A stretch of 21,444 bases of DNA from a virus. A model generated the notes under the pieces. The model was not told the DNA's origin. It saw only the letters and a program-made list of their open reading frames with translations, and ran no database searches. Positions 1 through 20,889 of this stretch are shown here, one piece after another. The position numbers and the translations under genes are program-made. The DNA is taken from the UHGV virus genome UHGV-1982450; one strand, written 5' to 3'. The first letter of the stretch is position 1; the number at the start of each line of letters is the position of its first letter.

Positions 1-35
1 AAGGCCTTTGAATAAGACAAAAGGCTGCCTCATCG

Positions 36-218
36 CTAACTTTGCAACAGTGCCCTTTTATCTCTCATAACCACCAGCGTCGATGCCGCCGGAGATTGGT
101 ATTTGAATATTCTGGCCTGCGGTGCTGGCTTTGCCTCAGAGACAGGAATAGGACGAGATTGACATGCAGTGATAAGTAACGCGGAGGCAGCAACCAGAGG
201 AAGTAATACGTGTTTCAT
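36..218 (-). CDS. Small putative lipoprotein. The ORF extends to 254, but an internal Met at 216-218 gives a signal peptide MKHVLLPLVAASALLITAC with lipobox LITAC.
   Basis: Basic n-region, hydrophobic h-region and L-I-T-A-C lipobox read from the translation. The upstream ATG at 252-254 lies inside a GC hairpin and has no Shine-Dalgarno. No recognisable homology. Confidence 0.45.
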   Translation of the reverse strand: MKHVLLPLVAASALLITACQSRPIPVSEAKPAPQARIFKYQSPAASTLVVMRDKRALLQS

Positions 219-277: not shown

Positions 278-556
278 TCAATCGAGGCGTTTTAGAATAT
301 CGGCCAGATCTTCTTTGGTCATACCCGAGTTTTCGTAAATCTTCATGACCTTTTCACGAGCCTTTGCAGTAGTCTCTAATGACGTAGCTATCTTATCAAA
401 ATCACCCATCGTCATATTGGACAGCACCAGATTGATGATGTCTGCCTTTGACAGTTTTATGCTGCGTTCACGCAGTCGATTCTGAAAGGTCTCTAGTTTA
501 TCGTTTGCTTTTTCGGTTAACTGAACCTGGCAGTGTATAGCGCGTTTCTCGCTCAT
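278..556 (-). CDS. Hypothetical 92-aa protein, possibly a ribbon-helix-helix type DNA-binding protein
   Basis: Its start at 556 lies 3 nt from the helicase stop at 559, suggesting translational coupling. The predicted beta-alpha-alpha pattern is weak evidence only. Confidence 0.4.
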   Translation of the reverse strand: MSEKRAIHCQVQLTEKANDKLETFQNRLRERSIKLSKADIINLVLSNMTMGDFDKIATSLETTAKAREKVMKIYENSGMTKEDLADILKRLD

Positions 557-2118: not shown

Positions 2119-2182
2119 AAACCTCTTTCCTTCGTGCCTTTTGTATGGTAATTGGCTATTATGTTAAGTAAGTGCTTACACA

Positions 2183-2611
2183 ATGTATCGTATCAAAAAT
2201 ATGGATGTGAAAATTACGATTCTACAGGTGGAAGTCGCGAACCTGCGTCCGAACCCCTGGAATACCAACTCCGTTGGGGCGCAAAACTTCGAAAAACTGA
2301 AAGGTTCCATCGAAAAGTTGGGCTTTTTTAAGCCAATTCTGGCGCGAGAGCTGGACGGCGGCATTTTTGAGATTCTCGGTGGCGAACATCGCTGGCGTGC
2401 CGCGATGGAGCAGGGCATTTCAACGGTTCCCGTCATCTCCGTGGGCAAAATTAACGACCTGGTGGCCAAACAGATGTTCCTCGTCGACAACGAGCGCTAC
2501 GGCGAAGACGATCAGGTCGCTTTGCAGCGCTTAATCGAAGAAATCCAGTCTGAAATCGACTACCGGTTACCCGAAACTGCTGCTGGCGCCTCGCCATCGC
2601 ATGTTTCCTAA
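2183..2611 (+). CDS. ParB-like nuclease domain (ParB/Srx fold) protein
   Basis: ParB N-terminal domain signature FEILGGEHRWRAA with the surrounding conserved hydrophobic pattern. Confidence 0.75.
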   Translation: MYRIKNMDVKITILQVEVANLRPNPWNTNSVGAQNFEKLKGSIEKLGFFKPILARELDGGIFEILGGEHRWRAAMEQGISTVPVISVGKINDLVAKQMFLVDNERYGEDDQVALQRLIEEIQSEIDYRLPETAAGASPSHVS

Positions 2612-3251
2612 GCTGAAGCCAACCACCAATACCACCGTGGCCAACCAGTATTGGGGGCGGTACGTGAACAACAACTTTGCGGTGATCAGCCGTTCCGTTG
2701 TGGACACTCAGTACCGCGGTGTCGGCGTCTCCTATCGAATGATTAACCTGGTTAGCAGGATGCACGACCGGCCAATCATCGAGATCCAGTCGTCGATGAG
2801 CAAATACAACCCGTTCGCCATGAAAGCAGGGTTCCAGTTCATCCGTCCGGAGCGTCCGAAGAGCTATGAGAGTGCGTTGCGCGTCTTCCAGCGTCATTTC
2901 CGTTCCGACCCTGGCGACAACGAAGCGATCGTCAAAGAGCTGTTTGCCATGAGTGAGTCTCGCCGTCGTCGTGCGCTGCGTGATCTGGTCGCTGACTACC
3001 ACAAGAACAGTTCCCTGGCCAAAGCCGGGCGTAATCGTGGCACGACGATTCAGGACATTGCCGACAGCCTGGTGGACGAGGCCAGCATCGTGAAGCTGCT
3101 CAAGGACATTCACAACCTGAGCTTCACGTCTCCGCTGTATGGCGTGTACCGAAACCCGGACTTTGGTCGTCAGCTGCCGGACACGCTGCCACTGCTGGCA
3201 TTCGACAAACAGCCTTTGAATAAACCTCTTGAAATTGCATTACCGGCATAA
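2601..3251 (+). CDS. Hypothetical protein; the N-terminal part carries a GNAT-like motif A/B pattern (QYRGVGVSYRMINLV ... NPFAMKAGFQF)
   Basis: 216-aa ORF overlapping the ParB-like ORF by 11 nt in a different frame. Frame 0 is open only from 2535, so it cannot extend further upstream. No good Shine-Dalgarno before 2601. Confidence 0.5.
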   Translation: MFPKLKPTTNTTVANQYWGRYVNNNFAVISRSVVDTQYRGVGVSYRMINLVSRMHDRPIIEIQSSMSKYNPFAMKAGFQFIRPERPKSYESALRVFQRHFRSDPGDNEAIVKELFAMSESRRRRALRDLVADYHKNSSLAKAGRNRGTTIQDIADSLVDEASIVKLLKDIHNLSFTSPLYGVYRNPDFGRQLPDTLPLLAFDKQPLNKPLEIALPA

Positions 3252-3260
3252 GGATTTGCC

Positions 3261-3527
3261 ATGACGTTGACCGACAAACAAAAAGACATCATCAAAACCA
3301 TCAATTTAGGCCATGAGCGTGGGCATCTGCTCGATCTGGACGAGCTGCTTGAAGTGCTGCCGTACAAAACGACCAAACAGAGTATGCAGTTCTCTATCCG
3401 CGCACTGGTGAAAAAGGGGCTGGTGGAGAAAGGAATGTGCCGCCAGCGCGGTGATTCCGGCTACCACCGTCGCACGCTGGGACTGACCACGTTAGGTCGT
3501 GCCAGAGCCAAATTACTGGTGATGTAA
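3261..3527 (+). CDS. Hypothetical small protein, possible winged-helix DNA-binding protein
   Basis: Shine-Dalgarno AAGGA 6-7 nt upstream of the ATG. Helix-turn-wing pattern LVKKGLVEK; weak. Confidence 0.45.
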   Translation: MTLTDKQKDIIKTINLGHERGHLLDLDELLEVLPYKTTKQSMQFSIRALVKKGLVEKGMCRQRGDSGYHRRTLGLTTLGRARAKLLVM

Positions 3528-3548
3528 GTCGGTCTGGGAGCCAGTTTG

Positions 3549-3611
3549 AGAGCCTGCTTCCGTATATATAAATACTAAGTGACTTATTAAATATATACGG
3601 AAGCAGGCTCT
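3549..3611. repeat. Perfect 21-bp inverted repeat (arms 3549-3569 and 3591-3611) around a 21-nt AT-rich spacer; a degenerate copy lies at 11519-11570
   Basis: AGAGCCTGCTTCCGTATATAT ... ATATATACGGAAGCAGGCTCT read directly. Intergenic, upstream of the terminase small subunit gene. No downstream U-tract. Confidence 0.8.
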
Positions 3612-3641
3612 GAATACTCCCCAGCCCGGTTTTAAACACCC

Positions 3642-3682
3642 AGAAAACAAATTGGTTAGGCACTGAATTAAACAAGTTGTTT
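3642..3682. promoter_or_regulatory. Two adjacent copies of a dyad motif AGAAAACAA(A/G)TTG(T/G)TT (3642-3657 and 3668-3682), 41 bp upstream of terS
   Basis: AAACAA-N-TTGTTT palindrome; the same motif recurs upstream of the parA-like and DnaB-like genes. Confidence 0.4.
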
Positions 3683-3722
3683 AGGAGCGCAAGGATGCGC
3701 TCTGAGTGTTTTAGAGGGATCT

Positions 3723-4364
3723 ATGACTATAGAAAAAGACGAGAGCAAAACTCGCCTGACACCAGCTGAGTGGGCAGAAGCCGAAGCGAAGTGGACTTCC
3801 GGCGAATACACACTCTCCAAGCTGGAGGAAGAGTACGGCATTCGTCGTGAAACGCTCTCCAGACATTTCAAAAAGCGTGGATTAGAGAAAGGCGCGGACT
3901 CCGTTGGGAAGATGGTGCGCGAGTCGCTCAAATCCGACGCAGAGCTGCGTGCGAAGGCGCGTGCAGAGAAAATCGAAGAGCGCCGGACTCGTTACGACGA
4001 TTGGGCGTTCGCACTCGGTCGTATGGTGATGCATGAGGTGGCCATAGCCAAGAAGGACGGCAGGCCACTGGCAGCCATCGAAGATGACCTGAAGAGTCTC
4101 CAGCGTGCCAGCGGCACACTCGCTAAGTGCTTCGAAATATCGTCGAAAGCGCTCGGTATGGATCGCGTGGAGAACGAGGACGACGAAATCCCGAACCTGG
4201 TATTTGGCGAACTTACGCCTTCCCAGGTGGCGCAGCTGCGTAAGGAAGATGATGAGCCGGATCTGATTGATGACGATCTGCTTGAGTCACTCGAAGAGGA
4301 AGCACTGAGCGAAGCTGAGGGCGATTCTGAAGCGTCTGGTGATGAAAGTGATGGGAGCGTCTGA
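3723..4364 (+). CDS. terS: Terminase small subunit (putative)
   Basis: Lies immediately upstream of the terminase large subunit with a 2-nt gap. HTH-like N-terminus, central helical region and strongly acidic C-terminal tail. Shine-Dalgarno GAGGG before the ATG. The call rests mainly on position and architecture. Confidence 0.65.
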   Translation: MTIEKDESKTRLTPAEWAEAEAKWTSGEYTLSKLEEEYGIRRETLSRHFKKRGLEKGADSVGKMVRESLKSDAELRAKARAEKIEERRTRYDDWAFALGRMVMHEVAIAKKDGRPLAAIEDDLKSLQRASGTLAKCFEISSKALGMDRVENEDDEIPNLVFGELTPSQVAQLRKEDDEPDLIDDDLLESLEEEALSEAEGDSEASGDESDGSV

Positions 4365-8023: not shown

Positions 8024-8275
8024 ATGTTCGACGGCCTGTTGTTCAAAATGAAATCCGCTTTGTTCACTCTGGCCGCCGTCATTCTAGTCCTTGTCGGCGC
8101 ATACTCCTATGGCGGGTATATGGCCAGACGCAGTATGGAAGAGAAAGAACGGCGGGAAGATAACAAGCGTCTTCAAAGCACAGTGGAAGTGGTGAATGAG
8201 ACGAACAGTGAAATACGTCAGAAAGATGCTTCTGCCATTCATCGTGAGCTGCATGATAAGTGGGTGCGTAATTAA
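8024..8275 (+). CDS. Putative i-spanin-like protein (Rz-like: N-terminal TM helix plus short periplasmic coiled coil)
   Basis: N-terminal TM helix ALFTLAAVILVLVGAY followed by a charged helical segment. Its 3' end overlaps a lipoprotein ORF in another frame. Confidence 0.4.
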   Translation: MFDGLLFKMKSALFTLAAVILVLVGAYSYGGYMARRSMEEKERREDNKRLQSTVEVVNETNSEIRQKDASAIHRELHDKWVRN

Positions 8276-8411
8276 GCCACAGACCACCAGCGTGTTGTTC
8301 TGCGATGGCGCTGAACCTATTTATATCAGCAATGACGATGTAATGACCGAAGAAACCGAACGCCAAATCCTTTTTCACAATACGATGGGAGAGAGAGTTT
8401 GCGGTTGGTGA
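8196..8411 (+). CDS. Putative o-spanin-like outer-membrane lipoprotein (Rz1-like), overlapping the preceding gene out of frame
   Basis: Signal peptide MRRTVKYVRKMLLPFIVSCMISGC with lipobox ISGC. The short mature domain carries extra cysteines. An alternative start lies at 8226. Confidence 0.4.
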   Translation: MRRTVKYVRKMLLPFIVSCMISGCVIKPQTTSVLFCDGAEPIYISNDDVMTEETERQILFHNTMGERVCGW

Positions 8412-8421
8412 TGTCGAAGTT

Positions 8422-8437
8422 CCCCTCAAATGAGGGG
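8422..8437. terminator. Candidate hairpin (CCCCTC-AAAT-GAGGGG) between the convergent spanin-like and GNAT toxin genes
   Basis: 6-bp GC stem with a 4-nt loop, followed on the plus strand by a moderately U-rich stretch ACAUUAUUCUU. Confidence 0.35.
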
Positions 8438-8443
8438 GACACA

Positions 8444-8965
8444 TTATTCTTCGAACAATTTTTCGATAGATTTTGTTGGATAGAACAAAGAACGATCGTT
8501 GTTACCAACCAGCTGGATAAAGCCCAAACTTTTATAAAACGCCCTGGCTTTATCGTTCAACGCCTCAACGAAAAGCCCATGAATGCCTACCGCAAGAGAT
8601 GCATTGTACACAACACGCATTGCGTGAGTTACAAGCATTGAGCCAAGCCCCTGACCTTGAAGAGATTTGTCCAAAGCCAGTCTGCCTAAAGTGATACTTG
8701 GGACATGCCGATAAGGCACTTTCTTTTGCTGACTCTTTGAAGGTAAGGTTTCTTTCTCAAAGCAGCTGCCTGACAAAGTGTAATAACCTAATACCTTTGG
8801 TATTTCTTCTTTAGTGCAAAGCACATAAGCGCGAAGAATTTTTCCTTCATGCTGTCTTTTTAAGTGGTTGGTCAAAAATGCGTTTAGCGACTCTTCGCCG
8901 CAATCAAAACCGTTTAGATCATAATCTTTCTCTCCAGAGAAAATCTCGATCGTCGTATTGCTCAC
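8444..8965 (-). CDS. GNAT-family acetyltransferase toxin of the TacT/AtaT/KacT type (aminoacyl-tRNA acetylating toxin family)
   Basis: Family-typical motifs FDCG, LGRLALDKSLQGQGLG and YKSLGF. Lies immediately downstream of, and co-oriented with, a DUF1778-type antitoxin gene. Confidence 0.9.
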   Translation of the reverse strand: MSNTTIEIFSGEKDYDLNGFDCGEESLNAFLTNHLKRQHEGKILRAYVLCTKEEIPKVLGYYTLSGSCFEKETLPSKSQQKKVPYRHVPSITLGRLALDKSLQGQGLGSMLVTHAMRVVYNASLAVGIHGLFVEALNDKARAFYKSLGFIQLVGNNDRSLFYPTKSIEKLFEE

Positions 8966-9242: not shown

Positions 9243-9510
9243 GTGTACCCCCTGATGGCCGGTGATGTAGGAAGGCCATCATTGCTCTCTATTTAAACTG
9301 AGTTTTCGACTCAAAGGTTATTTAACTGGGCTATAGCCCATTGCGTATGTGTCATCAAATTGTGTACGGCAATTTACCGTACTCGTAATATAGAGGTGAT
9401 TGTCACTTTTTTCAACAGACAAATGAAAACAGTTACTAGCAATAGGCAATAACAACCTACTAAATAACCTTTACACCGCAGCCGTAGGCATTTAGGCTAT
9501 ATCGCATATA

Positions 9511-9526
9511 AGAAAACAAGTTGTTT
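9511..9526. promoter_or_regulatory. Dyad motif AGAAAACAAGTTGTTT, 36 bp upstream of the parA-like start
   Basis: Same AAACAA-N-TTGTTT palindrome as at 3668-3682 and 12440-12455. Confidence 0.4.
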
Positions 9527-9561
9527 CATACGACAATAATTCACGCAAAGGAAACTCACCA

Positions 9562-10227
9562 ATGACCAAGATCATTGTGGTTGGCGGCACAAAAGGCGGC
9601 CCAGGCAAATCTACCGTTGCCCAGCAAATTGCGGTATGTCTCAAAGTTAAAAAGAAAAAGAAGGTTCACGTCACCGATATCGATATCCAGCGCACCACGA
9701 CCAGCTGGTGTGAAGACCGTCGCCAGAACGAAGATCTTGAACTGATCCCGTTCGCTTATGTGCAGGACGACATCGTCAAACATCTTAAATCGCTTCAGGG
9801 GCGAACTGATTATGTAGTGGTAGATGCTGGTGGCTTTGACTCCGAAATTCAGCGTCTGGCGATGCTTATGGCTGATGTAATCATCATCCCGCTGCGCCCT
9901 AAACGTCGTGATTTGAAATCTCTGCGTGATATCGACCCGATTATCGACAACGTTCGCAATGTGAACGAGAAAGTTAAGATCCGCGCGGTAATAAACCAGT
10001 GTCCGTCATTGCCTTCCCAGGTATCACGTATTCTGGCCGCGAAGGAAATTGTCGAAACTTTCGGCATCGAGGCTGCGCCGGTTAACCTGTACAACCGTAA
10101 CGTTTATGACGATGCGGAAGAGGCAGGTCGTTCTATCTTTGAAATGACTGGCGCTGAACGCGATAAGAAGGCAGAAGCCGAGTTCGAAGAGTTTGTAGAT
10201 TACATCTTGAGTCTGGAGGAAGAATAA
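9562..10227 (+). CDS. parA: ParA/ParF-type partition ATPase (small deviant Walker-A ATPase)
   Basis: Deviant Walker A GGTKGGPGKST at the N-terminus, size of about 221 aa typical of type Ib ParA/ParF, and a coupled downstream small RHH gene. Confidence 0.9.
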   Translation: MTKIIVVGGTKGGPGKSTVAQQIAVCLKVKKKKKVHVTDIDIQRTTTSWCEDRRQNEDLELIPFAYVQDDIVKHLKSLQGRTDYVVVDAGGFDSEIQRLAMLMADVIIIPLRPKRRDLKSLRDIDPIIDNVRNVNEKVKIRAVINQCPSLPSQVSRILAAKEIVETFGIEAAPVNLYNRNVYDDAEEAGRSIFEMTGAERDKKAEAEFEEFVDYILSLEEE

Positions 10228-11688: not shown

Positions 11689-12414
11689 GTGAGCCAGATC
11701 TTCTTCAACACTATCGACAATGACCAGTACGATTTCATGACAGAGTGGAACACCGCAGTCATGGATAAGTGGGTAGCGGAGAACATTGGCCTGTCACGTT
11801 GCAAGGACGAGGCGGAACTGTTCGAAACCAAATGGTTTGACTATCGCGATATGCACCCGCTCATGGCCACATGCCTTTTCACTGAGGCATACAAGCGCCA
11901 GTACTCATACATCATGCTGTCGCATGGTCGTGAACACTATGAGACGGCTCCATTCACAACCGGTCTGAAGCGTGTGCCATATCAGGAGTTGTCGACTGCC
12001 AATAAAACGTCTCTATGGAAAGCACGCCAGTTTGCTGACCGCTATTGCTGCTCATACGACTACTTTATCTCCACCGTTCTTTCCGCAGCTGCACGACGGC
12101 TGTGGGACAAATTACCGCGCCCCCAGCATCTCTGGCAGCCCGAGTTGATCGATATATTCGAAGAGAAGTTAGCCAAACGCGCTGTAACCCGTCTGGATGA
12201 CTCTCTGGTGAGTTTTAAGCATCTTGGAGACATGCAGCGTGACCCGATTCAGGAACGCTATTTTGAGTGGATTCTGGAGCGTCTGCGTGGCATTACCCGA
12301 GATAAACGCATCCGTATCATCTTCTCCGCTGTCTGGTTGATGGAAATCGTGCCTGAGCGTGTGATTTACGCGCACTTCCCGGAAGAACTGGAAGAAGCAC
12401 GGCGATTCTGTTGA
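11689..12414 (+). CDS. Hypothetical protein (241 aa, GTG start)
   Basis: Long ORF with Shine-Dalgarno AAAGGG 7 nt upstream of the GTG. No recognisable motifs. Confidence 0.55.
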   Translation: MSQIFFNTIDNDQYDFMTEWNTAVMDKWVAENIGLSRCKDEAELFETKWFDYRDMHPLMATCLFTEAYKRQYSYIMLSHGREHYETAPFTTGLKRVPYQELSTANKTSLWKARQFADRYCCSYDYFISTVLSAAARRLWDKLPRPQHLWQPELIDIFEEKLAKRAVTRLDDSLVSFKHLGDMQRDPIQERYFEWILERLRGITRDKRIRIIFSAVWLMEIVPERVIYAHFPEELEEARRFC

Positions 12415-12439
12415 TCCCCTATCTGGCTTTTTTAGTATT

Positions 12440-12455
12440 AGAAAACAAATTGTTT
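12440..12455. promoter_or_regulatory. Dyad motif AGAAAACAAATTGTTT, 20 bp upstream of the DnaB-like helicase start
   Basis: Same palindrome family as at 3642-3682 and 9511-9526. Confidence 0.4.
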
Positions 12456-12474
12456 AAGCACCAAAGGAAAGCAC

Positions 12475-13815
12475 ATGACCGAACTTTGCCACACAGGACG
12501 AGGGTTGTCTGAAGAGTTCGACGACGACTTCCAGAATAGACTCGCTGCCTACTTCTGTCGCGACCATGAGTTTCTGACTCGCGCAGGCGATCTGGTTGCC
12601 CCAAACCAGTTCTCTAATGCGGCTAACTCCATTCTGGTTAACATGGTGTCGGGCTACTACAGAATGTATAAGAGCGCACCATCATCATCAGCCATCCTCG
12701 ACATGCTCAAACGCGCCAAACGCGATAAGACGATCCGCGAAGAGCTGTTCCCTGACGTTGTTGAGGCGTTTAAGCGCATTCTCGCTGAGAAGCTGTCAGA
12801 TACGGCGTACATGGTCGACCAGGTCGCGACATTTGCTAAAAGCGTAGCGTTCGACGATGCGCTAATTAAAGCGGCTGAGATGAAAGAGAAGGGCGATTTC
12901 CAGGGCGCGATGGCAATCATGGCTAAGGTCCAGCAAATTGGCTCTAACGAAGCGACCGGCATTTACGATTACTTCGCAGAATCAGCGGAGCGTTACAAGG
13001 CCCGTGAGTACGAAGCGTCCGACGATTACGTGCCAAACAGCATCACTACCGGCCTCCCGCTGCTCGACAAACTGCTTTACCAGAAAGGCTGGGCAAAGCG
13101 TGAAATGGTGCTGTTTATGGGCTTCGCTAAGTCTGGTAAATCGACGGCGATGGGGGAGTTTTCCATCAACGCCACGCTTGCCGGTTACAACGTCCTGTAT
13201 CTGTCGCTGGAAGTTCACACCTCCATTCTGTCAGATCGCTTTGACGCCCGTCTGTCTGAGACCGAAATGTCCAGGCTGGTGGAACGTCGCGATGACGTCC
13301 ATCGCAAACTGGCGGAGCTGGGTGCGACGAAAGGCGTGGGAAGTTTGTGGATTGTTGAACGACCGTCCGGAAGCATGTCGCCCGCAGATCTGGATCGTAT
13401 GTTGGGCAGCATGAAAGCCAACGGCATGGTCCCCGATATGGTTGTGGTCGACTACGCTGACCTGATGCGTGCCAGCTACGACCTCCGCGACGACCGCGCT
13501 AACATTCGCAGCATCTACACTGACCTGCGTGCGCTGTACGACAAACACAACGTTGCCGGCATCACGGCATCGCAGACTAACAGAGAAGGTGGCGCTTCTG
13601 AGGTGGCTACAATGATGCACGCAGCGGACAACATCGAGAAGGTGCGTATCGCTGACCTCGTTATCACTATCAACAAAACGGAAGAAGAAGAAGCGAAAGG
13701 CGAAGCGCGTCTTTACTTCGCTGGTTCACGTAACCAGAAAGGCGGCGTAAGCATCCGCGTTAAGCAGAACCTCGAACAAATGCGATTCATCGAACGCATT
13801 ATGGACGTCCTCTAA
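12475..13815 (+). CDS. DnaB-like replicative helicase (RecA-fold C-terminal domain)
   Basis: Walker A GFAKSGKST followed by the DnaB-family pattern LYLSLEV ... VVVDYADLM ... ITASQTNREG. Shine-Dalgarno AAGGA before the ATG. Confidence 0.85.
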   Translation: MTELCHTGRGLSEEFDDDFQNRLAAYFCRDHEFLTRAGDLVAPNQFSNAANSILVNMVSGYYRMYKSAPSSSAILDMLKRAKRDKTIREELFPDVVEAFKRILAEKLSDTAYMVDQVATFAKSVAFDDALIKAAEMKEKGDFQGAMAIMAKVQQIGSNEATGIYDYFAESAERYKAREYEASDDYVPNSITTGLPLLDKLLYQKGWAKREMVLFMGFAKSGKSTAMGEFSINATLAGYNVLYLSLEVHTSILSDRFDARLSETEMSRLVERRDDVHRKLAELGATKGVGSLWIVERPSGSMSPADLDRMLGSMKANGMVPDMVVVDYADLMRASYDLRDDRANIRSIYTDLRALYDKHNVAGITASQTNREGGASEVATMMHAADNIEKVRIADLVITINKTEEEEAKGEARLYFAGSRNQKGGVSIRVKQNLEQMRFIERIMDVL

Positions 13816-13875
13816 AAAAGAAGGCGTGGGGAAACACTCTCCACGCCTGTCTCCAGAAGAGAACAAATTTCTCTT

Positions 13876-15229: not shown

Positions 15230-16216
15230 TTGTCGTTCTTTGGGGGAGAAGTGAACATTGTAGATGCTCTTGTTCTCAAGAAGTTAATGAGCGTTGGTGA
15301 TGAAACTGTTCTGTCAATCTTAAAGTTTTCAGCGTACAGCGGAGTGTCAACACTCGAAGAACTGGTAGTTAACTCCTCCAATCTGAAAATCTCAAATGGT
15401 AAATCTCGAGCAACTCTCGAAAGTTTCTTCGACGCTGCGAACTTCCAGGCTCTCAGGGACGAAGTAAAAACAGAGATTGATTCGTTCAAAAATAAAGGAG
15501 TTGAGATTGTTATCTTCGGTTCGAAAAACTATCCAATTTCGTTATATGATCTCCCGAAACCTCCACCCTTTCTTTACTGTAAAGGCAATCTAAATCTCTT
15601 AGAGAATAGGCTTTCATTAGCTGTTGTAGGAACTCGTGAAAACACCCCCAAGGGTGAAACCCTAACGATTAAAACTATTCAAAAGTTTGCGACTTATGGC
15701 TTCACGATAGTCAGTGGACTTGCACTGGGTATCGATACAATTGCTCATCGCGCGGCATTAGATGCCAAAACACCAACGATTTCTGTTCTTGTCGATGTGG
15801 AGTCTATTTCTCCCGCAAGTAATCGGGAACTCGCTAAGGAAATATTGGACGAGGGCGGACTTCTAGTTGCAGAGAATGCACCAGGAACCAAAGCAATACC
15901 TGCGTTCTTTGCTAAGCGAGACAGGATACAAGCAGGTTTATCTACTGCCGTCTTTGCTATTGAAACTTCGATAGATGGTGGGACGATGCACGCAGTCAAA
16001 TCTGCTATCTCTATGATGCGTCCTGTCTTCGTTCCTGACGTACATAAAGCTAAGTATCCAGATCTTACTATCAAGGCAATTTCAGGAACTCAACAGCTAG
16101 TTAACGAAGGGAGGGCGATACCATACACGAGCGAATCTTATGAAGATATTCGTCTTCAATTAGAAGATATCGCGAGTTCATTTGGGTCGTTGAAAGCAAA
16201 AGGTGGCCTGCTGTGA
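15230..16216 (+). CDS. DprA/Smf-like (SLOG-type Rossmann) protein; candidate antitoxin or partner of the downstream PRTase fusion protein
   Basis: DprA signature LAVVGTR ... GFTIVSGLALGIDTIAHRAAL ... FAKRDRIQAGLSTAVFAIETSIDGGTMHA. Its stop overlaps the start of the next gene (GTGA). Start may be TTG at 15230 or GTG at 15251 (GGGGGAG Shine-Dalgarno). Confidence 0.85.
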   Translation: MSFFGGEVNIVDALVLKKLMSVGDETVLSILKFSAYSGVSTLEELVVNSSNLKISNGKSRATLESFFDAANFQALRDEVKTEIDSFKNKGVEIVIFGSKNYPISLYDLPKPPPFLYCKGNLNLLENRLSLAVVGTRENTPKGETLTIKTIQKFATYGFTIVSGLALGIDTIAHRAALDAKTPTISVLVDVESISPASNRELAKEILDEGGLLVAENAPGTKAIPAFFAKRDRIQAGLSTAVFAIETSIDGGTMHAVKSAISMMRPVFVPDVHKAKYPDLTIKAISGTQQLVNEGRAIPYTSESYEDIRLQLEDIASSFGSLKAKGGLL

Positions 16217-19200
16217 TAAAGGTCATCGTCCTCGATCTTGATGACACGCTTATTGATACATCAAGCCTCGAACCACTTCGGTTAGCTGGCCGATGGAGAG
16301 ACATACCCAGGTACTTTAATGGTTGTGTCATCAATCAGGACGTTGTCGGCCTTGTTACAACGGCTCGGTCGGTTGGAATCAAGGTTGCTATCTTCTCGAA
16401 TGCGCCTTCGAACTACGTTCAGGGGCTACTCAAACACTTCAGTATCACTGTTGATTATGTAGTAGCCTACCATGATGTAACGCAGCATAAGCCGAGCCCT
16501 GAGGGCGTTACTCGTATTCTCGAGTACTTCGGTGTTAGCGCCGACGAGTCAATTTATTTAGGAGATAGTAACCTAGATCGAGACGCTGCTTCCAATGCAG
16601 GAGTTGAGTTTTTCTCAGTAGATTGGGGTTCTGCCTCGGAGATCGATTCGTCACATAAGGGAATAAGCGGTCTCTCCGAGCTTATTGGAAAAAACTCGAC
16701 GCGGAGCTCCGCAAGAACTGGACGTTCTGAGTTAATACAATCTGGGAATAAACTTCATCTGGGATTCTATTTAGATGGTATCAAACAGGAAGTTTGGTCT
16801 TTCAAGGATAACAAGAATACTTCTGTTCGCCGCTGGGTTAACAAGACTGTTGAGCTAGCTTCTTCATTCCCAGCCATAGATATAGTTGTTCGAGCGTTAG
16901 GTCACGCTGAGCTTAGGGCTGAAGATGGCGATAAAGCATTAGATACCTTGGGCAAATCGCTGGCTGTTGCTTTAGGGGCTTCTTACCAACCTAAGATATT
17001 AGAGAAAGATCACGTATTAGATAAATCGACTAATTGCACTGCAGCACAAAGACTCCACCAGGTCAGAGGTGCCTATAAAGCCGATTTTGATTCAATAGAA
17101 GCTAATTCAAATCCGACATTTCTGATCATTGACGACGTATTAACTTCGGGGGCTACAACTGATGAGATAACACGCTGTCTATCTCAAGCTTTTCCGAATT
17201 CAAGTATTTACATTTTTACGTTGGTTAAAACTCTCTATAGATTGGAGCTATGCACTGACAGCCAAGAACAACAACACAATAACCAACTGTTTTCAGATTT
17301 GTACAACCCAATCATCGACTCGCTGGCGGACGAAAGTGAACTATCTAGACATGTCAGGTCGAAGTCTAGTAGCAGGCTTGTAAGCAAGAAGTTTTCTGCT
17401 AACTACGCGAGAACCAACCATAACTTCATTTTCCACAATCTTCTCCAGTATTCTATCTCGTCTGAAGCGGCGTCTGGACAGCTATTTGCAGCAATTCAAG
17501 TTCTTAAGAATATGCTTCAGAGAGGGAAGCCAACAATAGCCTCGCGGAAGCTGAGGAAGGCATTTGGCATTGAACTGGATCAGAACGTTCTTAATACACC
17601 AGCTCAGGCTCTTGTGTCAGATAAGCCGGTTTTTTGGAATAGATTGATTCGAGGCCACAAACAGTCAGGAAACTACCCAGCGAAAAGGTTTTTTGATGAG
17701 CTGATACCGAAGTATTTCGGTAAGTACATTTTTGTAAAACAACTAATGCTCCCTGAAGTCCAGATTTACGATATGACTCAGGTCTACGTTGAACAATTCC
17801 AGAACCGACAGGTAGATTTTTACATTCCTCAAGTTGGTTTAATTATTGAGATAGACGGTCAGCAGCACCAAAATTCTCAGCATTTAGATGAAATGAGGGA
17901 TGCGTTTACCGAAAGCCTGGGACTGAAGACTGTTCGATTCACTGTTCAAGAACTGGCATCTGAGAACCAGTCATTTATCAGTAAGATAAATTCGATTATT
18001 TCTCACATTCAGATCGTTGATGGTCTAGAGCGAAATGGTGTCCTAACGCCTCCTAATGGTATTTCTTTATTGAATTACCAAGAGGCTTACGAAAATGGAG
18101 TCGATGTTACTGACTCGCGATTGAGGCTGACCTCGGCGTTGCGTTTCCAGATACTGTTATTAGAGCTTCTTGAACGCGGTCAGATCAGACTAGGGGAGTT
18201 GAAAAAACTATTCATAGTCAATCGTGATGGAACTGATTTTGCTGAAGCGGCACTGGACGACCTGAACGATTTGTTATCGAATATCTTTCGTCTCATCGGC
18301 ATTGAAGAAAAGCGAATTGAGGTTGCGCTGATCGAATCAGATGAGCTTCCGAGCGAACGGTCTGGTGAAAATATATTCATCGACTTCAGCTTACTGGAGC
18401 GTTATGACGATTCCTTTCAAGTTAACCAAGACGTCATATATTCACGTACGGATTACTTCGATTTCTATCGAAACTTCGAAGATTCTGATGCTGTTTCAAT
18501 AGAAACCAGTCAATTGATTGACTATGACTTTTTTGAGCTTTCATGTAGTAACCCCATTACCTACAAGCTAGATCTTAGCCCAGGCAGCGAGCAGAGAGAG
18601 TCGCTGAGATACTTCCTCAGCAACCTGTTTCTACCATACCTAGAGGATGTAGATTTCAGGGAAGGGCAGGTTGGTATCATAGGATCTGCACTTTCGAAAA
18701 ACGGCACAATAGGATTGCTGCCTACAGGTTCGGGTAAGTCGATTTGTTACCAGCTGTCTGCGGTCCTGCAACCAGCCGTTAGCTTTGTCGTGTGCCCGAT
18801 AAAAAGTTTGATGTATGACCAGAAAGCAGATTTGGATAGCATCGGCTTCACTCGAAGCAATTTTATTACAAGTGATTTGAAGGCAGGAGAGAAGGCCAAA
18901 GTTCAGAGAGATTTCGGACGTGGTAAGTACTTCTTCGTTTTTATATCGCCTGAGCGATTCCAAACCCATGCGTTTAGAAAAGAGATGTTGGCTATCGGAC
19001 TAGATCTCTCATTTGCCTACGCGGTGATCGATGAAGCTCACTGTTTGTCTGAGTGGGGACATGATTTCAGGACTTCTTATCTGAACCTGGCAAATACAAT
19101 CGAACGGTTTGCTCCCAGTGCGAGTTATATAGGTCTAACGGCAACAGCATCAGTTAACGTCCTAAAGGATATTCAAACAGAGTTTGATATCCCAGATGAT

Positions 19201-20889
19201 TTTGTCCGTACCCCCATGGACTTCACTCGCGAGGAACTATCATTCCACGTCATTGACGATAAAGGCCGTAAAGGTGATGCAGTCGTCGAGCTTGTTTCTG
19301 AAATGGAGGGTAAATGGAATTCAGATGGGGAAGACGGCAATAAGGCGGGGATCATATTCACTTCTACCGTCAACGGAGCTAAGGGGTGTTATAGCTTAGC
19401 GGGCCGAATATCAACACTCTTGAAGATGGATGTTAGATATTTTTCGGGGTCGGCTCCGAAAATGGGTGGATTGCAGGGAGAGGCTTTCGATAGATATAAG
19501 CGCCAAGTTCAAGACGATTTTAAAGAAAATAAATACCGCCTACTTACTGCCACTAAGGCATTCGGAATGGGCGTGAATAAGGGAAATATTGCCTATACGG
19601 TTCACTTCGGAATACCTGGGTCGATGGAGGCCTTGTATCAGGAAGCTGGCAGGGCAGGGCGAGATAAAAAACTATTCAAGGAAGTACCCGCAGATTGCTA
19701 TGTGCTTCTCACAAAAGAGCCCAATTCAGCTATTCTCGACAAGATTTGGGACGCTAGCACGAACGTCAAAGATCTGAAGGAGTACGTGAAGTCATTGAGT
19801 CGCGATAGCGACCTGAACACAAATCTATTCCTGATGACAAACGGCTTGGGCACAATCAATGATGAGTTCAAGTTGATGGCAAATGTATACGAATTTTTTA
19901 AGTACAATCAGGAACACAACACGGTGACCATTACTGCCAGGCAGTTTGGTACGGAAAAGTTTAAATTGGAAAAGGCTATCTACCGCCTTTCTCAATTAGG
20001 TATTGTCTCTGACTGGGTAATCGAAGACTTTTTTAATGGAACGCTCTCTGTCGAGTTCCAGTGCCTATCGGAAGAAGGCCTGGAAAAGAAAATTGAGCAT
20101 ACCGTCAGAAAGTATGATCCTGAGTTTAAGCTCGCTGATGTGTTCAGTAGTGATAACCAGTACTACAAAATTCTCTGCGACAAGCTGAGAAAAGGGTCTA
20201 TCGATAAATCGCAATTTATCTTTCTTGTTCTTTTACTTTGGTCCTATGACCATTTTGTCTACAACCGCCGCCAGTCACAGAAGAACGTTTATGAACACTG
20301 TAGTTTATTTGCTGAAGGCAGGATGGATGGTAAAGAATTTAAGGAGAAGTTAGAGGGTTATTTCAGACACGACAAGTCGAGCCAACTTTTGCTCAATATG
20401 GCTGAGAATTCTGTGTCGGTGAAGTTATGGCCATCAGTTTTTTTTGAAACTGATGAAGAAGAGGGCTCGGAACATTTAGTAAGCAGCGAGAAGATGACGA
20501 TCCTACGAGGTCAGATTTCTCGATTCCTAGAGTCATACAAAGATAATGCATTCTTGAACTACTTGAGTGGTGTGCTGCGACTAGCTTCCGATGAGTTTGA
20601 TGATGCAGATGGAGAGCGAAGAATGGCATCGTCATTTGATCGGTTGATCAGTGATAATAGGGATGAAGCACTAGAGCTGGTCCGAAAAACTATGCAGTTA
20701 AAACCAATATTTTCTGAAAATGCGCGAAGTCGCTTTGCTCGTTTGGTCCATGAGAAATTTGAAGATTTGGATTTTCTTGGGGAAGTAAATGAAGAGCTAG
20801 GAGATCCGTTCTCCTATCACACTTTGTTAGCTCCACTGGCAATTAGACTTGAAAAACTTACCAGCCTATACAAGGGGATTAATTGGTGA
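16213..20889 (+). CDS. 1558-aa multidomain protein: N-terminal HAD-like phosphatase, ComF-like PRTase, Vsr/DUF559-like endonuclease-fold module, RecQ-family SF2 helicase core, and an uncharacterised C-terminal region of about 390 aa
   Basis: HAD motifs DLDDTL, FSNA, HKP, GDSNLDRD (aa 1-140). PRTase PRPP loop FLIIDDVLTSGATT (nt 17119-17160). Vsr-like pattern DFYIPQVGLIIEIDGQQH ... TVRF (about nt 17710-17997). RecQ motifs LLPTGSGKS, VVCPIKSLMYDQ, VIDEAHCLSEWGHDFR, LTATA, ATKAFGMGVNK, YQEAGRAGRD (about nt 18610-19692). Confidence 0.9.
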   Translation: MIKVIVLDLDDTLIDTSSLEPLRLAGRWRDIPRYFNGCVINQDVVGLVTTARSVGIKVAIFSNAPSNYVQGLLKHFSITVDYVVAYHDVTQHKPSPEGVTRILEYFGVSADESIYLGDSNLDRDAASNAGVEFFSVDWGSASEIDSSHKGISGLSELIGKNSTRSSARTGRSELIQSGNKLHLGFYLDGIKQEVWSFKDNKNTSVRRWVNKTVELASSFPAIDIVVRALGHAELRAEDGDKALDTLGKSLAVALGASYQPKILEKDHVLDKSTNCTAAQRLHQVRGAYKADFDSIEANSNPTFLIIDDVLTSGATTDEITRCLSQAFPNSSIYIFTLVKTLYRLELCTDSQEQQHNNQLFSDLYNPIIDSLADESELSRHVRSKSSSRLVSKKFSANYARTNHNFIFHNLLQYSISSEAASGQLFAAIQVLKNMLQRGKPTIASRKLRKAFGIELDQNVLNTPAQALVSDKPVFWNRLIRGHKQSGNYPAKRFFDELIPKYFGKYIFVKQLMLPEVQIYDMTQVYVEQFQNRQVDFYIPQVGLIIEIDGQQHQNSQHLDEMRDAFTESLGLKTVRFTVQELASENQSFISKINSIISHIQIVDGLERNGVLTPPNGISLLNYQEAYENGVDVTDSRLRLTSALRFQILLLELLERGQIRLGELKKLFIVNRDGTDFAEAALDDLNDLLSNIFRLIGIEEKRIEVALIESDELPSERSGENIFIDFSLLERYDDSFQVNQDVIYSRTDYFDFYRNFEDSDAVSIETSQLIDYDFFELSCSNPITYKLDLSPGSEQRESLRYFLSNLFLPYLEDVDFREGQVGIIGSALSKNGTIGLLPTGSGKSICYQLSAVLQPAVSFVVCPIKSLMYDQKADLDSIGFTRSNFITSDLKAGEKAKVQRDFGRGKYFFVFISPERFQTHAFRKEMLAIGLDLSFAYAVIDEAHCLSEWGHDFRTSYLNLANTIERFAPSASYIGLTATASVNVLKDIQTEFDIPDDFVRTPMDFTREELSFHVIDDKGRKGDAVVELVSEMEGKWNSDGEDGNKAGIIFTSTVNGAKGCYSLAGRISTLLKMDVRYFSGSAPKMGGLQGEAFDRYKRQVQDDFKENKYRLLTATKAFGMGVNKGNIAYTVHFGIPGSMEALYQEAGRAGRDKKLFKEVPADCYVLLTKEPNSAILDKIWDASTNVKDLKEYVKSLSRDSDLNTNLFLMTNGLGTINDEFKLMANVYEFFKYNQEHNTVTITARQFGTEKFKLEKAIYRLSQLGIVSDWVIEDFFNGTLSVEFQCLSEEGLEKKIEHTVRKYDPEFKLADVFSSDNQYYKILCDKLRKGSIDKSQFIFLVLLLWSYDHFVYNRRQSQKNVYEHCSLFAEGRMDGKEFKEKLEGYFRHDKSSQLLLNMAENSVSVKLWPSVFFETDEEEGSEHLVSSEKMTILRGQISRFLESYKDNAFLNYLSGVLRLASDEFDDADGERRMASSFDRLISDNRDEALELVRKTMQLKPIFSENARSRFARLVHEKFEDLDFLGEVNEELGDPFSYHTLLAPLAIRLEKLTSLYKGINW

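What the first reader, a model, noticed from the sequence alone, without database searches (positions are those of the whole stretch)
3642..3682. Recurrent dyad motif AGAAAACAA(A/G)TTG(T/G)TT in the leaders of three operons
Near-identical 16-mers occur at 3642-3657, 9511-9526 and 12440-12455, with a further AAACAAGTTGTTT core at 3670-3682. They lie 20-45 bp upstream of the terS, parA-like and DnaB-like start codons. The core AAACAA-N-TTGTTT is a perfect 6-1-6 palindrome, as expected for a dimeric regulator. A related dyad AAGAGAA-CAAAT-TTCTCTT sits at 13857-13875 before the primase gene. This points to a common operator or promoter element coordinating packaging, partition and replication.
Basis: seen in the sequence. 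Interest (0 to 1): 0.55.

Follow-up and report, generated by a model that had tools for sequence, protein, structure and literature searches.

The report
Shared operator motif of SSU5-like phage-plasmids
The repeated 13-base palindrome AAACAA-N-TTGTTT is real: it is an apparently undescribed control site placed at the start of about twenty gene blocks in every SSU5-like phage-plasmid examined (a family that includes the plague plasmid pFra/pMT1 and, by its annotation, Salmonella Typhi pHCM2), but which protein reads it remains unknown.

Summary
The window has four strong copies of (A)AGAAAACAA-N-TTGTTTA, at 3641, 3666, 9510 and 12439. All are intergenic, lie on the + strand, and sit 19-65 nt before the terS-like, parA and dnaB starts.

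The window is a decayed SSU5-like phage-plasmid inside an E. coli IS26/IncF mosaic plasmid. In complete relatives the 13-bp dyad occurs about 20 times per genome. In SSU5, 20 of 20 copies lie in the 11.5% of DNA that is intergenic (0.085 expected). The central base is random. Both half-sites are near-invariant across lineages whose proteins have diverged to 33-90% identity.

Copies lie either 9-11 nt downstream of a GATAAT-type -10 element, or overlapping the -35 region. Some promoters have both, 49-51 bp apart. Genes behind the motif are mostly silent in a Cyrano lysogen.

Best reading: a double-stranded DNA operator for a conserved element-encoded dimeric regulator that blocks the promoter. 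The binder is unresolved. The invariant 88-aa winged-helix protein at 3261-3527 fits best. A FljA-like tandem-Sm protein, absent from this window, is the intriguing RNA-level rival.

The primase "related dyad" does not belong. The motif was not found in the searchable literature.

The parts
3641..3659 (+). Motif copy 1, CAGAAAACAAATTGGTTAG. It is the distal copy before the terS-like gene, and its core 3645-3657 carries one mismatch.
   Evidence: Matrix score 25.7 bits. The same copy is kept in SSU5, Cyrano and Y. pestis pFra.
3666..3684 (+). Motif copy 2, AATTAAACAAGTTGTTTAG. The dyad core 3670-3682 is perfect, lies 25 bp centre-to-centre from copy 1, and is followed directly by AGGAG.
   Evidence: Matrix score 24.0 bits. 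The direct repeat with 25-bp spacing is reported.
9510..9528 (+). Motif copy 3, AAGAAAACAAGTTGTTTCA. The core ends 35 nt before the parA start at 9562.
   Evidence: Matrix score 28.5 bits. Orthologous copies are at SSU5 30449 and Cyrano 29255.
12439..12457 (+). Motif copy 4, TAGAAAACAAATTGTTTAA. The core ends 19 nt before the DnaB-like start at 12475.
   Evidence: Matrix score 28.5 bits. Across 80 related loci the motif is invariant while its central base and its flanks vary.
9470..9498 (+). Hand-called promoter for parA: TTTACA (9470-9475), 17-nt spacer, TAGGCT (9493-9498). The motif starts 12 nt after the -10 element.
   Evidence: Read. It matches 8 of 12 consensus positions, so the strict consensus scan does not call it. 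This is inference.
12411..12438 (+). Hand-called promoter for dnaB: TTGATC (12411-12416), 16-nt spacer, TAGTAT (12433-12438). The -10 element abuts the motif.
   Evidence: Read. The -10 varies as TAGTAT, TACGAT or TAATAC between lineages but keeps TA..A.. The strict scan does not call it. This is inference.
3684..3703 (+). Terminator-like hairpin (GGAGCGCA-AGGA-TGCGCTCT, then GAGTGTTTTA) between motif copy 2 and the terS-like start.
   Evidence: A hairpin with a different sequence sits at the same place in pL3995-2. Its role is unknown; it could be an attenuator of the late operon.
3261..3527 (+). 88-aa winged-helix protein (PHROG 900). It is the best-conserved candidate reader of the dyad and ends 115 bp upstream of copy 1.
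278..556 (-). 92-aa protein with an RHH-like sequence pattern (PHROG 1466). It was considered as the binder and is disfavoured.
   Evidence: It is 12-fold above background in a Cyrano lysogen. It is only 33% identical in pL3995-2, and its beta-strand residues vary between lineages.

Best explanation
The motif is the operator of a regulon that spans the whole SSU5-like phage-plasmid family.

Its functional core is the 13-bp dyad AAACAA-N-TTGTTT, read on double-stranded DNA by a symmetric dimer of a conserved, element-encoded protein.

The dyad is built into recurring cassettes. Each cassette has the terminator of the preceding unit, then a GATAAT-type (often TGcGATAAT) -10 element, then the dyad, then the Shine-Dalgarno sequence and the ATG.

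The dyad sits in one of two places. In the first it starts 9-11 nt downstream of the -10, at about +3 to +20. In the second it is centred near -38 and covers the -35 region. Some promoters have both copies, 49-51 bp apart.

A protein bound at either place would block RNA polymerase binding or escape. That would keep these units off in the plasmid state.

In this window the dyad marks the heads of the late (terS-like), parA and dnaB units.

Shown: the motif's existence, enrichment, placement, orientation and conservation, and the low mRNA of downstream genes in a lysogen.

Inferred: the transcription start points, action at the DNA level, repression, and the binder. My best guess for the binder is the invariant 88-aa winged-helix protein at 3261-3527, at about 0.3 on its own.
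For: 1. Enrichment and placement. In SSU5, 20 of 20 dyads with up to 1 mismatch lie in the 11.5% of the genome that is intergenic (binomial P about 1.6e-19). Shuffled intergenic DNA gives 0.085. All four window copies are intergenic.
2. Dyad signature. Over 58 pooled sites the central base is random (A14, C16, G14, T14), and both half-sites are equally conserved. Departures from consensus are one-sided and never compensatory. That argues against a hairpin.
3. Orientation independence. The cobT-like site reads AGAAAACAAATTGTTTAA in SSU5. In Cyrano it is inverted at the same position before the SD.
4. Copies that cannot all act as RNA. The -35-proximal copies begin in the T-tract of tool-called terminators, for example SSU5 85580-85603 followed by ACAATTTGTT. 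They recur in pL3995-2 at a fixed distance from GATAAT.
5. Promoter linkage. The alignment of 14 SSU5 sites gives a.T.a.aCcaa.aAGAAAACAA.TTGTTTA with a GATAAT block upstream.
6. Phylogenetic footprint. Upstream of dnaB in 80 loci the motif is invariant while the spacer and flanks diverge. The same motif is found in lineages with 33-90% protein identity and in Y. pestis pFra.
7. Expression. In the Cyrano lysogen, first genes behind the motif are at background: 5.7-12.9 against a median of 9.8. The exceptions are parA at 49.8, dnaB at 21 and CYRAN_111 at 25.5 (PMC9928086 S1 table).
8. Candidate reader. The 88-aa protein has a MarR-like winged-helix fold. Its recognition helix is invariant. It is 75-89% identical across lineages.
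Against: - No binding or transcription-start data exist.
- The strict sigma-70 consensus scan calls no promoter at the three window sites. It finds no excess of promoters in the SSU5 cluster either: 8 found against 13.3 in shuffles. The promoter positions are therefore hand calls based mainly on the -10 element.
- The motif has asymmetric flanks (AAGA on the 5' side, A on the 3' side) and a strong strand bias: AGAAAACAA occurs 13 times on + and 2 times on - in SSU5. It also usually abuts the SD. All of this would equally suit an mRNA-leader element.
- The winged-helix gene is at background in the lysogen (7.8). That is awkward for a lysogenic repressor.
- parA carries a perfect site and is still expressed 5-fold above background.
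- The invariance of the motif across deep lineages could also mean that a host factor reads it.
Confidence: 0.55

Rival explanations
1. The motif is an mRNA-leader operator for the FljA-like protein. Transcribed as AAGAAAACAA-N-UUGUUUA at the 5' end of the leader and abutting the SD, it would be bound by the family's FljA homologue (SSU5_121, CYRAN_114). Binding would block ribosome access and speed mRNA decay, as reported for FljA on fliC mRNA. The window has lost this gene, so its motif-bearing units would be derepressed.
For: - SSU5_121 matches Pfam PF03614 (Flag1_repress) at E 3e-81.
- The gene is in all 12 SSU5-like phage records and in 831 plasmids. These include plasmids of Klebsiella, which from my own knowledge is non-flagellate, so a role limited to host flagellin seems unlikely.
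- Real fliC leaders read ...AACATCAAGTTGTAATTGATAAGGAAAAGATCATG. They share CAAGTTGT with the motif, 19 nt before the ATG. In SSU5 most cores end 12-21 nt before the ATG.
- The motif is co-oriented with genes, 13 to 2, and usually touches the SD.
Against: - Reverse-complement symmetry with a free central base has no rationale for single-strand RNA binding. A 5-bp A-U stem with a 3-nt loop is not credible, and no compensatory changes are seen.
- The -35-proximal copies begin in terminator T-tracts, so they would not be fully transcribed.
- The orthologous site is inverted in Cyrano.
- The FljA-like protein is among the fastest-evolving proteins of the family: 34% identity between SSU5 and pL3995-2, while the motif is unchanged.
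- The 8-mer shared with fliC could be chance. My own estimate is roughly 0.004-0.01 for a 60-nt leader.
- The mapped FljA operator could not be read, because the primary papers are not held.
Confidence: 0.2
2. The motif has no dedicated element-encoded regulator. It would be an intrinsic part of a duplicated promoter-leader cassette: an initial transcribed region, an A/U-rich translation enhancer, or the site of a conserved host factor. Its spread and conservation would come from promoter and ribosome constraints and from cassette duplication.
For: - The motif is invariant across hosts and deep lineages while element regulators diverge. That fits a highly conserved reader such as host machinery.
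- The whole 45-bp block (-10, CACCAACAAG, motif, SD) is repeated, not just the dyad.
- Half-sites AAGAAAACAA occur alone next to an SD.
- A/U-rich leaders next to the SD are known translation enhancers (general knowledge, not tested here).
Against: - C4 and G10 are invariant and mirror each other, which goes beyond A/U richness.
- Copies upstream of -35, and the inverted orthologue, are not explained by a leader function.
- From my recall of the E. coli transcription-factor consensus sites, which was not tested with any tool, no host factor matches a 6-1-6 AAACAA/TTGTTT dyad.
- In IMG/VR, 103 of 120 loci carrying the exact 18-mer are SSU5-like. The other 17 are single, chance-like hits. A host-factor site would be expected in other phages of the same hosts.
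Confidence: 0.15
3. The motif is the operator of the RHH-like protein at 278-556 (SSU5_123, CYRAN_117), acting as the lysogenic repressor.
For: - It is the most highly expressed conserved small gene of the leftward operon in a lysogen: 114 against a median of 9.8.
- Its sequence pattern is RHH-like.
- 13-bp palindromes can be read by RHH proteins, for example MatP on matS and CopG (from my own knowledge).
Against: - No Pfam or PDB sequence hit supports the fold, and the fold was not modelled.
- It is only 33-58% identical between lineages that share an identical motif.
- The predicted DNA-facing strand residues differ: H,Q,Q in the window and SSU5; Y,Q,A in Cyrano; F,Q,A in the Nissabacter-type element; S,H,K in pL3995-2.
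- No dyad lies in its own operon's promoter region 2119-2182.
Confidence: 0.07

Closest known systems
Multi-operator regulons of plasmid prophages and broad-host-range plasmids: the P1 C1 operators, and the RK2 KorB O_B sites (TTTAGCSGCTAAA). Both are cited from my own knowledge.
   Same: One short operator is repeated at many dispersed promoters of a roughly 100-kb extrachromosomal element and ties replication, partition and other modules into one circuit. The KorB O_B site is also a 13-bp 6-1-6 palindrome, and some of its copies sit just upstream of the -35.
   Different: The sequence is unrelated. The P1 C1 operators are asymmetric 17-mers. No C1 or KorB homologue has been tied to the motif here. 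The element's two ParB-like proteins are untested and silent in the lysogen. Most copies here lie downstream of the -10, next to the SD.
FljA and the fliC mRNA operator of Salmonella flagellar phase variation
   Same: A FljA-family protein (PF03614) is encoded by the element family. The target lies between promoter and SD. The fliC leader shares CAAGTTGT with the motif at a similar distance from the ATG.
   Different: fliC is a single chromosomal target, against about 20 sites here. The fliC leader has a 5-7-5 dyad (ATCAA...TTGAT), not a 6-1-6 dyad. Some copies here lie outside any leader. Binding was not tested. The gene is absent from this window.
T4 RegA-type global translational repression, and the T4 PeSL (promoter-early stem-loop) cassettes. 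PMC3014915 appeared for T4 post-transcriptional control; PeSL is from my own knowledge.
   Same: Many early genes each carry a short conserved element next to the ribosome-binding site. Promoter-plus-hairpin cassettes are repeated between small ORFs in a plastic region (SSU5 88-95 kb).
   Different: RegA sites are loose A/U-rich RNA sequences without dyad symmetry. PeSL elements have no shared operator dyad. No RegA homologue was found.
MarR-family winged-helix repressors and their palindromic operators
   Different: The protein has only the winged-helix core plus one C-terminal helix, without the MarR dimerisation helices. It has no sequence-level family hit. Dimerisation and DNA binding are untested.

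Membership tests
Repressor operator on double-stranded DNA (phage or plasmid regulon operator) | The sequence recurs far above chance and is confined to regulatory (intergenic) DNA. | tested here: met
   In the window, 6 matches against 0.98 expected. In SSU5, 20 of 20 dyads are intergenic with 0.085 expected.
Repressor operator on double-stranded DNA (phage or plasmid regulon operator) | Two-fold sequence symmetry with a non-specific centre, kept across relatives without compensatory changes. | tested here: met
   The central base is A14, C16, G14, T14, and both halves are at least 90% conserved over 58 sites. Deviations are one-sided. The site is inverted in Cyrano.
Repressor operator on double-stranded DNA (phage or plasmid regulon operator) | The site overlaps the core promoter or the transcription start. 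| tested here: inconclusive
   A GATAAT or TGcGATAAT block lies 9-11 nt upstream of the motif, or 19 nt downstream of the -35-type copies. The strict sigma-70 scan calls none of them, and no start sites are mapped.
Repressor operator on double-stranded DNA (phage or plasmid regulon operator) | A cognate protein binds the site and the downstream genes respond. | not testable with these tools
   Only indirect evidence exists. Motif-headed genes are at background in the Cyrano lysogen RNA-seq. Candidate proteins were ranked by conservation.
FljA-type mRNA operator | A FljA-family (PF03614) protein is encoded by the same element. | tested here: not met
   The gene is present in SSU5, Cyrano, pL3995-2 and pFra. 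It is absent from the window and from its host plasmid NZ_CP086388 (tblastn).
FljA-type mRNA operator | The target lies wholly within the 5'UTR. | tested here: inconclusive
   This is true for the downstream-type copies if the hand-called -10 elements are right. It is not true for the -35-type copies that follow terminators.
FljA-type mRNA operator | The sequence resembles the known fliC operator. | tested here: inconclusive
   The 8-mer CAAGTTGT is shared, at a similar distance from the ATG. The mapped operator could not be read because the papers are not held.
Known structured RNA family (Rfam) | A match at gathering score to any Rfam 15 model. | tested here: not met
   There are 0 matches in the whole window on either strand.
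Consensus sigma-70 promoter | A -35 and a -10 hexamer matching at least 9 of 12 positions with a 16-18 nt spacer. | tested here: not met
   No + strand call was made upstream of terS, parA or dnaB. The hand calls match 8 of 12.

The most novel reading that the evidence does not exclude
The dyad-bearing leaders are the native targets of the family's FljA-like protein, which the model predicts to be a tandem Sm/Hfq-like fold. On this reading an Hfq-like protein encoded by a phage-plasmid silences about 20 transcription units at or just after transcription initiation. Salmonella's phase-variation repressor FljA would then be a domesticated copy of this phage-plasmid regulator, acting on a look-alike site in the fliC leader.
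Probability: 0.17. Interest if true: 0.8.

Novelty: new member of a known kind. Interest (0 to 1): 0.52.

Why it matters
SSU5-like phage-plasmids are widespread in Enterobacterales. More than 800 PLSDB plasmids carry the family's marker genes. They include Yersinia pestis pFra/pMT1. By annotation, Salmonella Typhi pHCM2 belongs too: one search returned a hit named 'repressor of fliC' from S. Typhi on a 106.7-kb contig. Some members carry resistance genes (PMC9600943, listed).

Their lysis-lysogeny and maintenance control is essentially uncharacterised. A single invariant 13-bp operator at the head of the late, partition, replication and roughly 15 other units gives three things:
- a defined handle for finding the master regulator, by pull-down or ChIP;
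- a way to predict transcription units in these elements;
- a way to ask whether decayed derivatives like this window, which have lost candidate regulators, express the remaining phage genes constitutively.

It is a solid, testable regulon motif rather than a new kind of mechanism.

Tried and rejected
- Literature. A search for the five 13-mer variants found 0 papers. An earlier search that included GAAAACAA was uninformative. SSU5 and phage-plasmid papers hold nothing on promoters or operators of this family. One preprint with many 'promoter' mentions was not readable. The primary FljA papers are not held.
- Covariation between regulator and motif. The motif is identical in lineages with 33-96% identical FljA-like and RHH-like proteins, so no covariation signal exists.
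- Known RNA family. Rfam gives nothing.
- RNA or DNA hairpin. Rejected, because half-site changes are never compensatory.
- Primase dyad as a family member. Rejected.
- The 'CCTTTTC' box as an activator box. It turned out to be the distal stem and T-tract of the preceding unit's terminator.
- Host transcription-factor sites (IHF, Fis, KdgR, PhoP, 434-type and others). Compared from memory only; none fits the 6-1-6 spacing, and this was not tested with tools.
- Consensus promoter scan. It does not support my hand-called promoters.
- CYRAN_45, SSU5_116 and SSU5_054 as binders. Rejected, because they are not conserved across the family.
- Motif in unrelated phages. Only single, chance-like hits were found.

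Full report
**What is in the window.**
- The 16-mer AGAAAACAARTTGKTT with up to 3 mismatches has 6 matches against 0.98 expected, and 0 of 100 shuffles reach 6.
- The dyad AAACAANTTGTTT with up to 2 mismatches has 5 matches against 1.63 expected.
- A weight matrix built from SSU5 sites scores four window positions at 24.0-28.5 of a possible 31.6 bits: 3641, 3666, 9510 and 12439, all on the + strand. Nothing else exceeds 15 bits. Shuffled windows give 0-5 hits at 10 bits or more, and none that strong.
- All four copies are intergenic. From core end to start codon they lie 65, 40, 35 and 19 nt upstream of three genes:
  - the terS-like gene at 3723 (PHROG 867, next to TerL);
  - parA at 9562;
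  - the DnaB-like gene at 12475.
- The 'related dyad' before the primase gene (13857-13875) exists. It scores below 10 bits, and its inverted repeat is not conserved in SSU5. I exclude it.

**What the window is.** It is 100% identical to part of E. coli mosaic plasmids such as NZ_CP086388.1 and NZ_CP067400.1. It is 82-92% identical to Salmonella phage SSU5 and to other SSU5-like phage-plasmids.
- The host plasmid is an IS26/IncF resistance mosaic that holds only pieces of the phage-plasmid.
- The window starts at an IS26 end.
- It lacks about 2 kb of the ParB-ABC operon and nearly all structural genes after the portal and scaffold genes. This follows from comparing with SSU5.

**The motif in complete relatives.** In SSU5 (103,299 bp) the dyad with up to 1 mismatch occurs 20 times.
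- All 20 lie in annotated intergenic DNA, which is 11.5% of the genome (binomial P about 1.6e-19). Shuffled intergenic sequence gives 0.085 hits, and coding DNA has none.
- The sites precede many genes besides terS, parA and dnaB. These include a cobT-like gene, nrdB, a DNA methylase and a run of small ORFs at 88-95 kb.
- The same sites recur in several other elements:
  - E. coli phage-plasmid Cyrano;
  - elements whose FljA-like protein is only 52-54% identical to that of SSU5;
  - a deep Klebsiella lineage, pL3995-2;
  - Y. pestis pFra.
- Of 120 IMG/VR loci with the exact 18-mer AAGAAAACAANTTGTTTA, 103 are SSU5-like. The other 17 are single hits, about the number I estimate by chance.
- No paper in the searchable library contains any of the 13-mers. 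Rfam finds nothing in the window.

**Anatomy.** Aligning 14 co-oriented SSU5 sites gives a.T.a.aCcaa.aAGAAAACAA.TTGTTTA, with a GATAAT-like block 9-11 nt upstream. That block is often TGcGATAAT, an extended -10 by eye.
- The SD and ATG usually follow within 12-21 nt.
- Further upstream, the recurrent 'CCTTTTC' is the distal stem and T-tract of the preceding unit's terminator hairpin.
- The units are therefore terminator, -10 element, dyad, SD cassettes.
- A second class of copies lies upstream. It reads AAACAAnTTGTTTTCT(G/A)CC, lies 19 nt before GATAAT, and is centred near -38. It is frequent in pL3995-2 and present in SSU5 at 85602, 88319 and 93662.
- Some promoters carry both classes, 49-51 bp centre-to-centre.
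- Several upstream copies begin within the T-tract of terminators that the scan tool itself calls, for example SSU5 85580-85603 followed by ACAATTTGTT.
- The strict sigma-70 scan (at least 9 of 12 positions) calls no promoter at the three window sites. It finds no excess in the SSU5 cluster either. My promoter positions are hand calls that rest mainly on the -10 element: parA TTTACA-17-TAGGCT and dnaB TTGATC-16-TAGTAT, each 8 of 12. No start sites are mapped.

**DNA or RNA?** Several features point to recognition of double-stranded DNA by a symmetric dimer.
- Over 58 pooled sites the central base is random (A14, C16, G14, T14). Both halves are equally and almost fully conserved, with C4 mirrored by G10.
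- Deviations are always one-sided, for example TTGGTT, TAACAA and TTATTT, and they are inherited by orthologues without compensation. That rules out a hairpin.
- The cobT-like site is inverted in Cyrano relative to SSU5 at the same place.
- The -35-type copies would be only partly transcribed, if at all.

Other features fit an mRNA-leader element.
- The motif has asymmetric flanks and a strong strand bias: AGAAAACAA occurs 13 times on + and 2 times on - in SSU5.
- It usually abuts the SD.

I weigh the DNA-operator reading at 0.55 and the RNA-operator reading at 0.2.

**Expression.** The published LF82 transcriptome lists every Cyrano gene (PMC9928086, S1 table). The median is 9.8.
- First genes behind the motif are at background: terS 7.1, cobT-like 7.8, CYRAN_58 5.7, nrdB 12.9, CYRAN_85 7.0, CYRAN_87 7.1, CYRAN_101 7.5, CYRAN_105 12.8, CYRAN_106 12.2 and CYRAN_110 6.7.
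- The exceptions are parA (49.8), dnaB (21.1) and CYRAN_111 (25.5).
- This fits repression in the plasmid state. It does not prove repression, and it does not separate transcriptional from post-transcriptional control.

**Who reads it?** I looked at three candidates.

(a) The 88-aa protein at 3261-3527 ends 115 bp upstream of the terS copies.
- Its AF2 model is confident (pLDDT 86).
- It is 75-89% identical across lineages. That makes it one of the best-conserved small proteins of the family.
- Its predicted recognition helix TTKQSxQFSxRAL is invariant. This parallels the invariance of the motif.
- Against it, the gene is at background in the lysogen (7.8).

(b) The protein at 278-556 has an RHH-like sequence pattern.
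- It is 12-fold above background in the lysogen.
- It has no family hit.
- It is only 33-58% identical between lineages.
- Its predicted DNA-facing strand residues differ between lineages with the same motif. I disfavour it.

(c) SSU5_121 and its homologues belong to the FljA family (PF03614, E 3e-81).
- The gene is in all SSU5-like phage records and in 831 plasmids, including 341 from Klebsiella.
- It is absent from the window and from its host plasmid. In SSU5 it is the last gene of the leftward operon, and the window keeps only the first two genes of that operon before the IS26 junction.
- Real fliC leaders from Salmonella and Citrobacter read AACATCAAGTTGTAATTGATAAGGAAAAGATCATG. They share CAAGTTGT with the motif at a similar distance from the ATG.
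- This link is suggestive. It is weakened by the dyad arguments above and by the protein's fast divergence: 34% identity between SSU5 and pL3995-2 with an unchanged motif.

**Verdict.**
- The element is much broader than 'packaging, partition and replication'. It is the family-wide operator of SSU5-like phage-plasmids, embedded in repeated promoter cassettes.
- The primase dyad is unrelated.
- The binder and the level of action (DNA or RNA) remain open.
- In kind it resembles the multi-operator regulons of P1 (C1) and RK2 (KorB). In sequence, and probably in its reader, it is new.

Noticed in passing
window 3546-3614: A 24-nt inverted repeat, TTGAGAGCCTGCTTCCGTATATAT / ATATATACGGAAGCAGGCTCTGAA, is 96% complementary with 21 nt between the arms. 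It lies just upstream of the terS motif pair. The deposited linear SSU5 and Cyrano records begin inside it: SSU5 position 1 corresponds to window position ~3590. It could be a packaging or terminus site, or a strong bidirectional terminator.
   Followed up: partly
window 3684-3703: A terminator-like hairpin followed by GAGTGTTTTA lies between the second terS dyad and the terS SD. pL3995-2 has a hairpin of different sequence at the same position. This hints at attenuation or antitermination control of the late operon.
   Followed up: partly
window 1-61, 2183-3251 and 8275-8444: The element is decayed. There is an IS26 end at 1-61. The ParB-like gene is truncated to its N-terminal domain and fused near an ABC-type gene that lacks its first ~80 residues, so about 2 kb is missing relative to SSU5 99817-102961. 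The capsid-to-lysis genes are missing after the scaffold-like and Rz-like ORFs. It can no longer be a functional phage.
   Followed up: partly
SSU5 96897-97424 (L005:46897-47424, minus strand); not in the window: Proteins of the FljA family (PF03614), including the homologue in these phage-plasmids, are predicted to be tandem Sm/Hfq-like domains with no HTH. I do not know whether this has been reported before.
   Followed up: yes
SSU5 about 88,000-88,040 (L005 ~38,000-38,040), upstream of SSU5_103: A perfect LexA-box-like sequence, CTGTTTATATATACAG, follows a TATAAT in the divergent region that also holds a dyad. It may be the SOS entry point of the induction circuit. Cyrano is reported to be induced by ciprofloxacin (PMC9928086).
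   Followed up: no
window 2168-2179: A perfect 5-2-5 palindrome, GTAAGTGCTTAC, lies in the 64-bp divergent region between the DEAD-box helicase operon (which includes the RHH-like gene) and the ParB-like operon. It could be the operator of a different regulator.
   Followed up: no
Cyrano 43103-43121 against SSU5 42725-42743: The orthologous cobT-like site is present in opposite orientation in the two genomes, at the same distance from the SD.
   Followed up: yes
window 16213-20889: A 1558-aa ORF is intact here. In NZ_CP086388 it is split by IS1 into a 'HAD-IA hydrolase' and a 'helicase-related protein'. SSU5 has a different, reverse-strand gene at the corresponding place.
   Followed up: no
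L021 (IMGVR_UViG_3300014963_000005, a 149-kb contig): This contig has no blastn similarity to SSU5-like genomes. It nevertheless carries the full module ...ttattgAAGAAAACAATTTGTTTAaggagtagtttATG. It may be a distant relative that uses the same operator.
   Followed up: no
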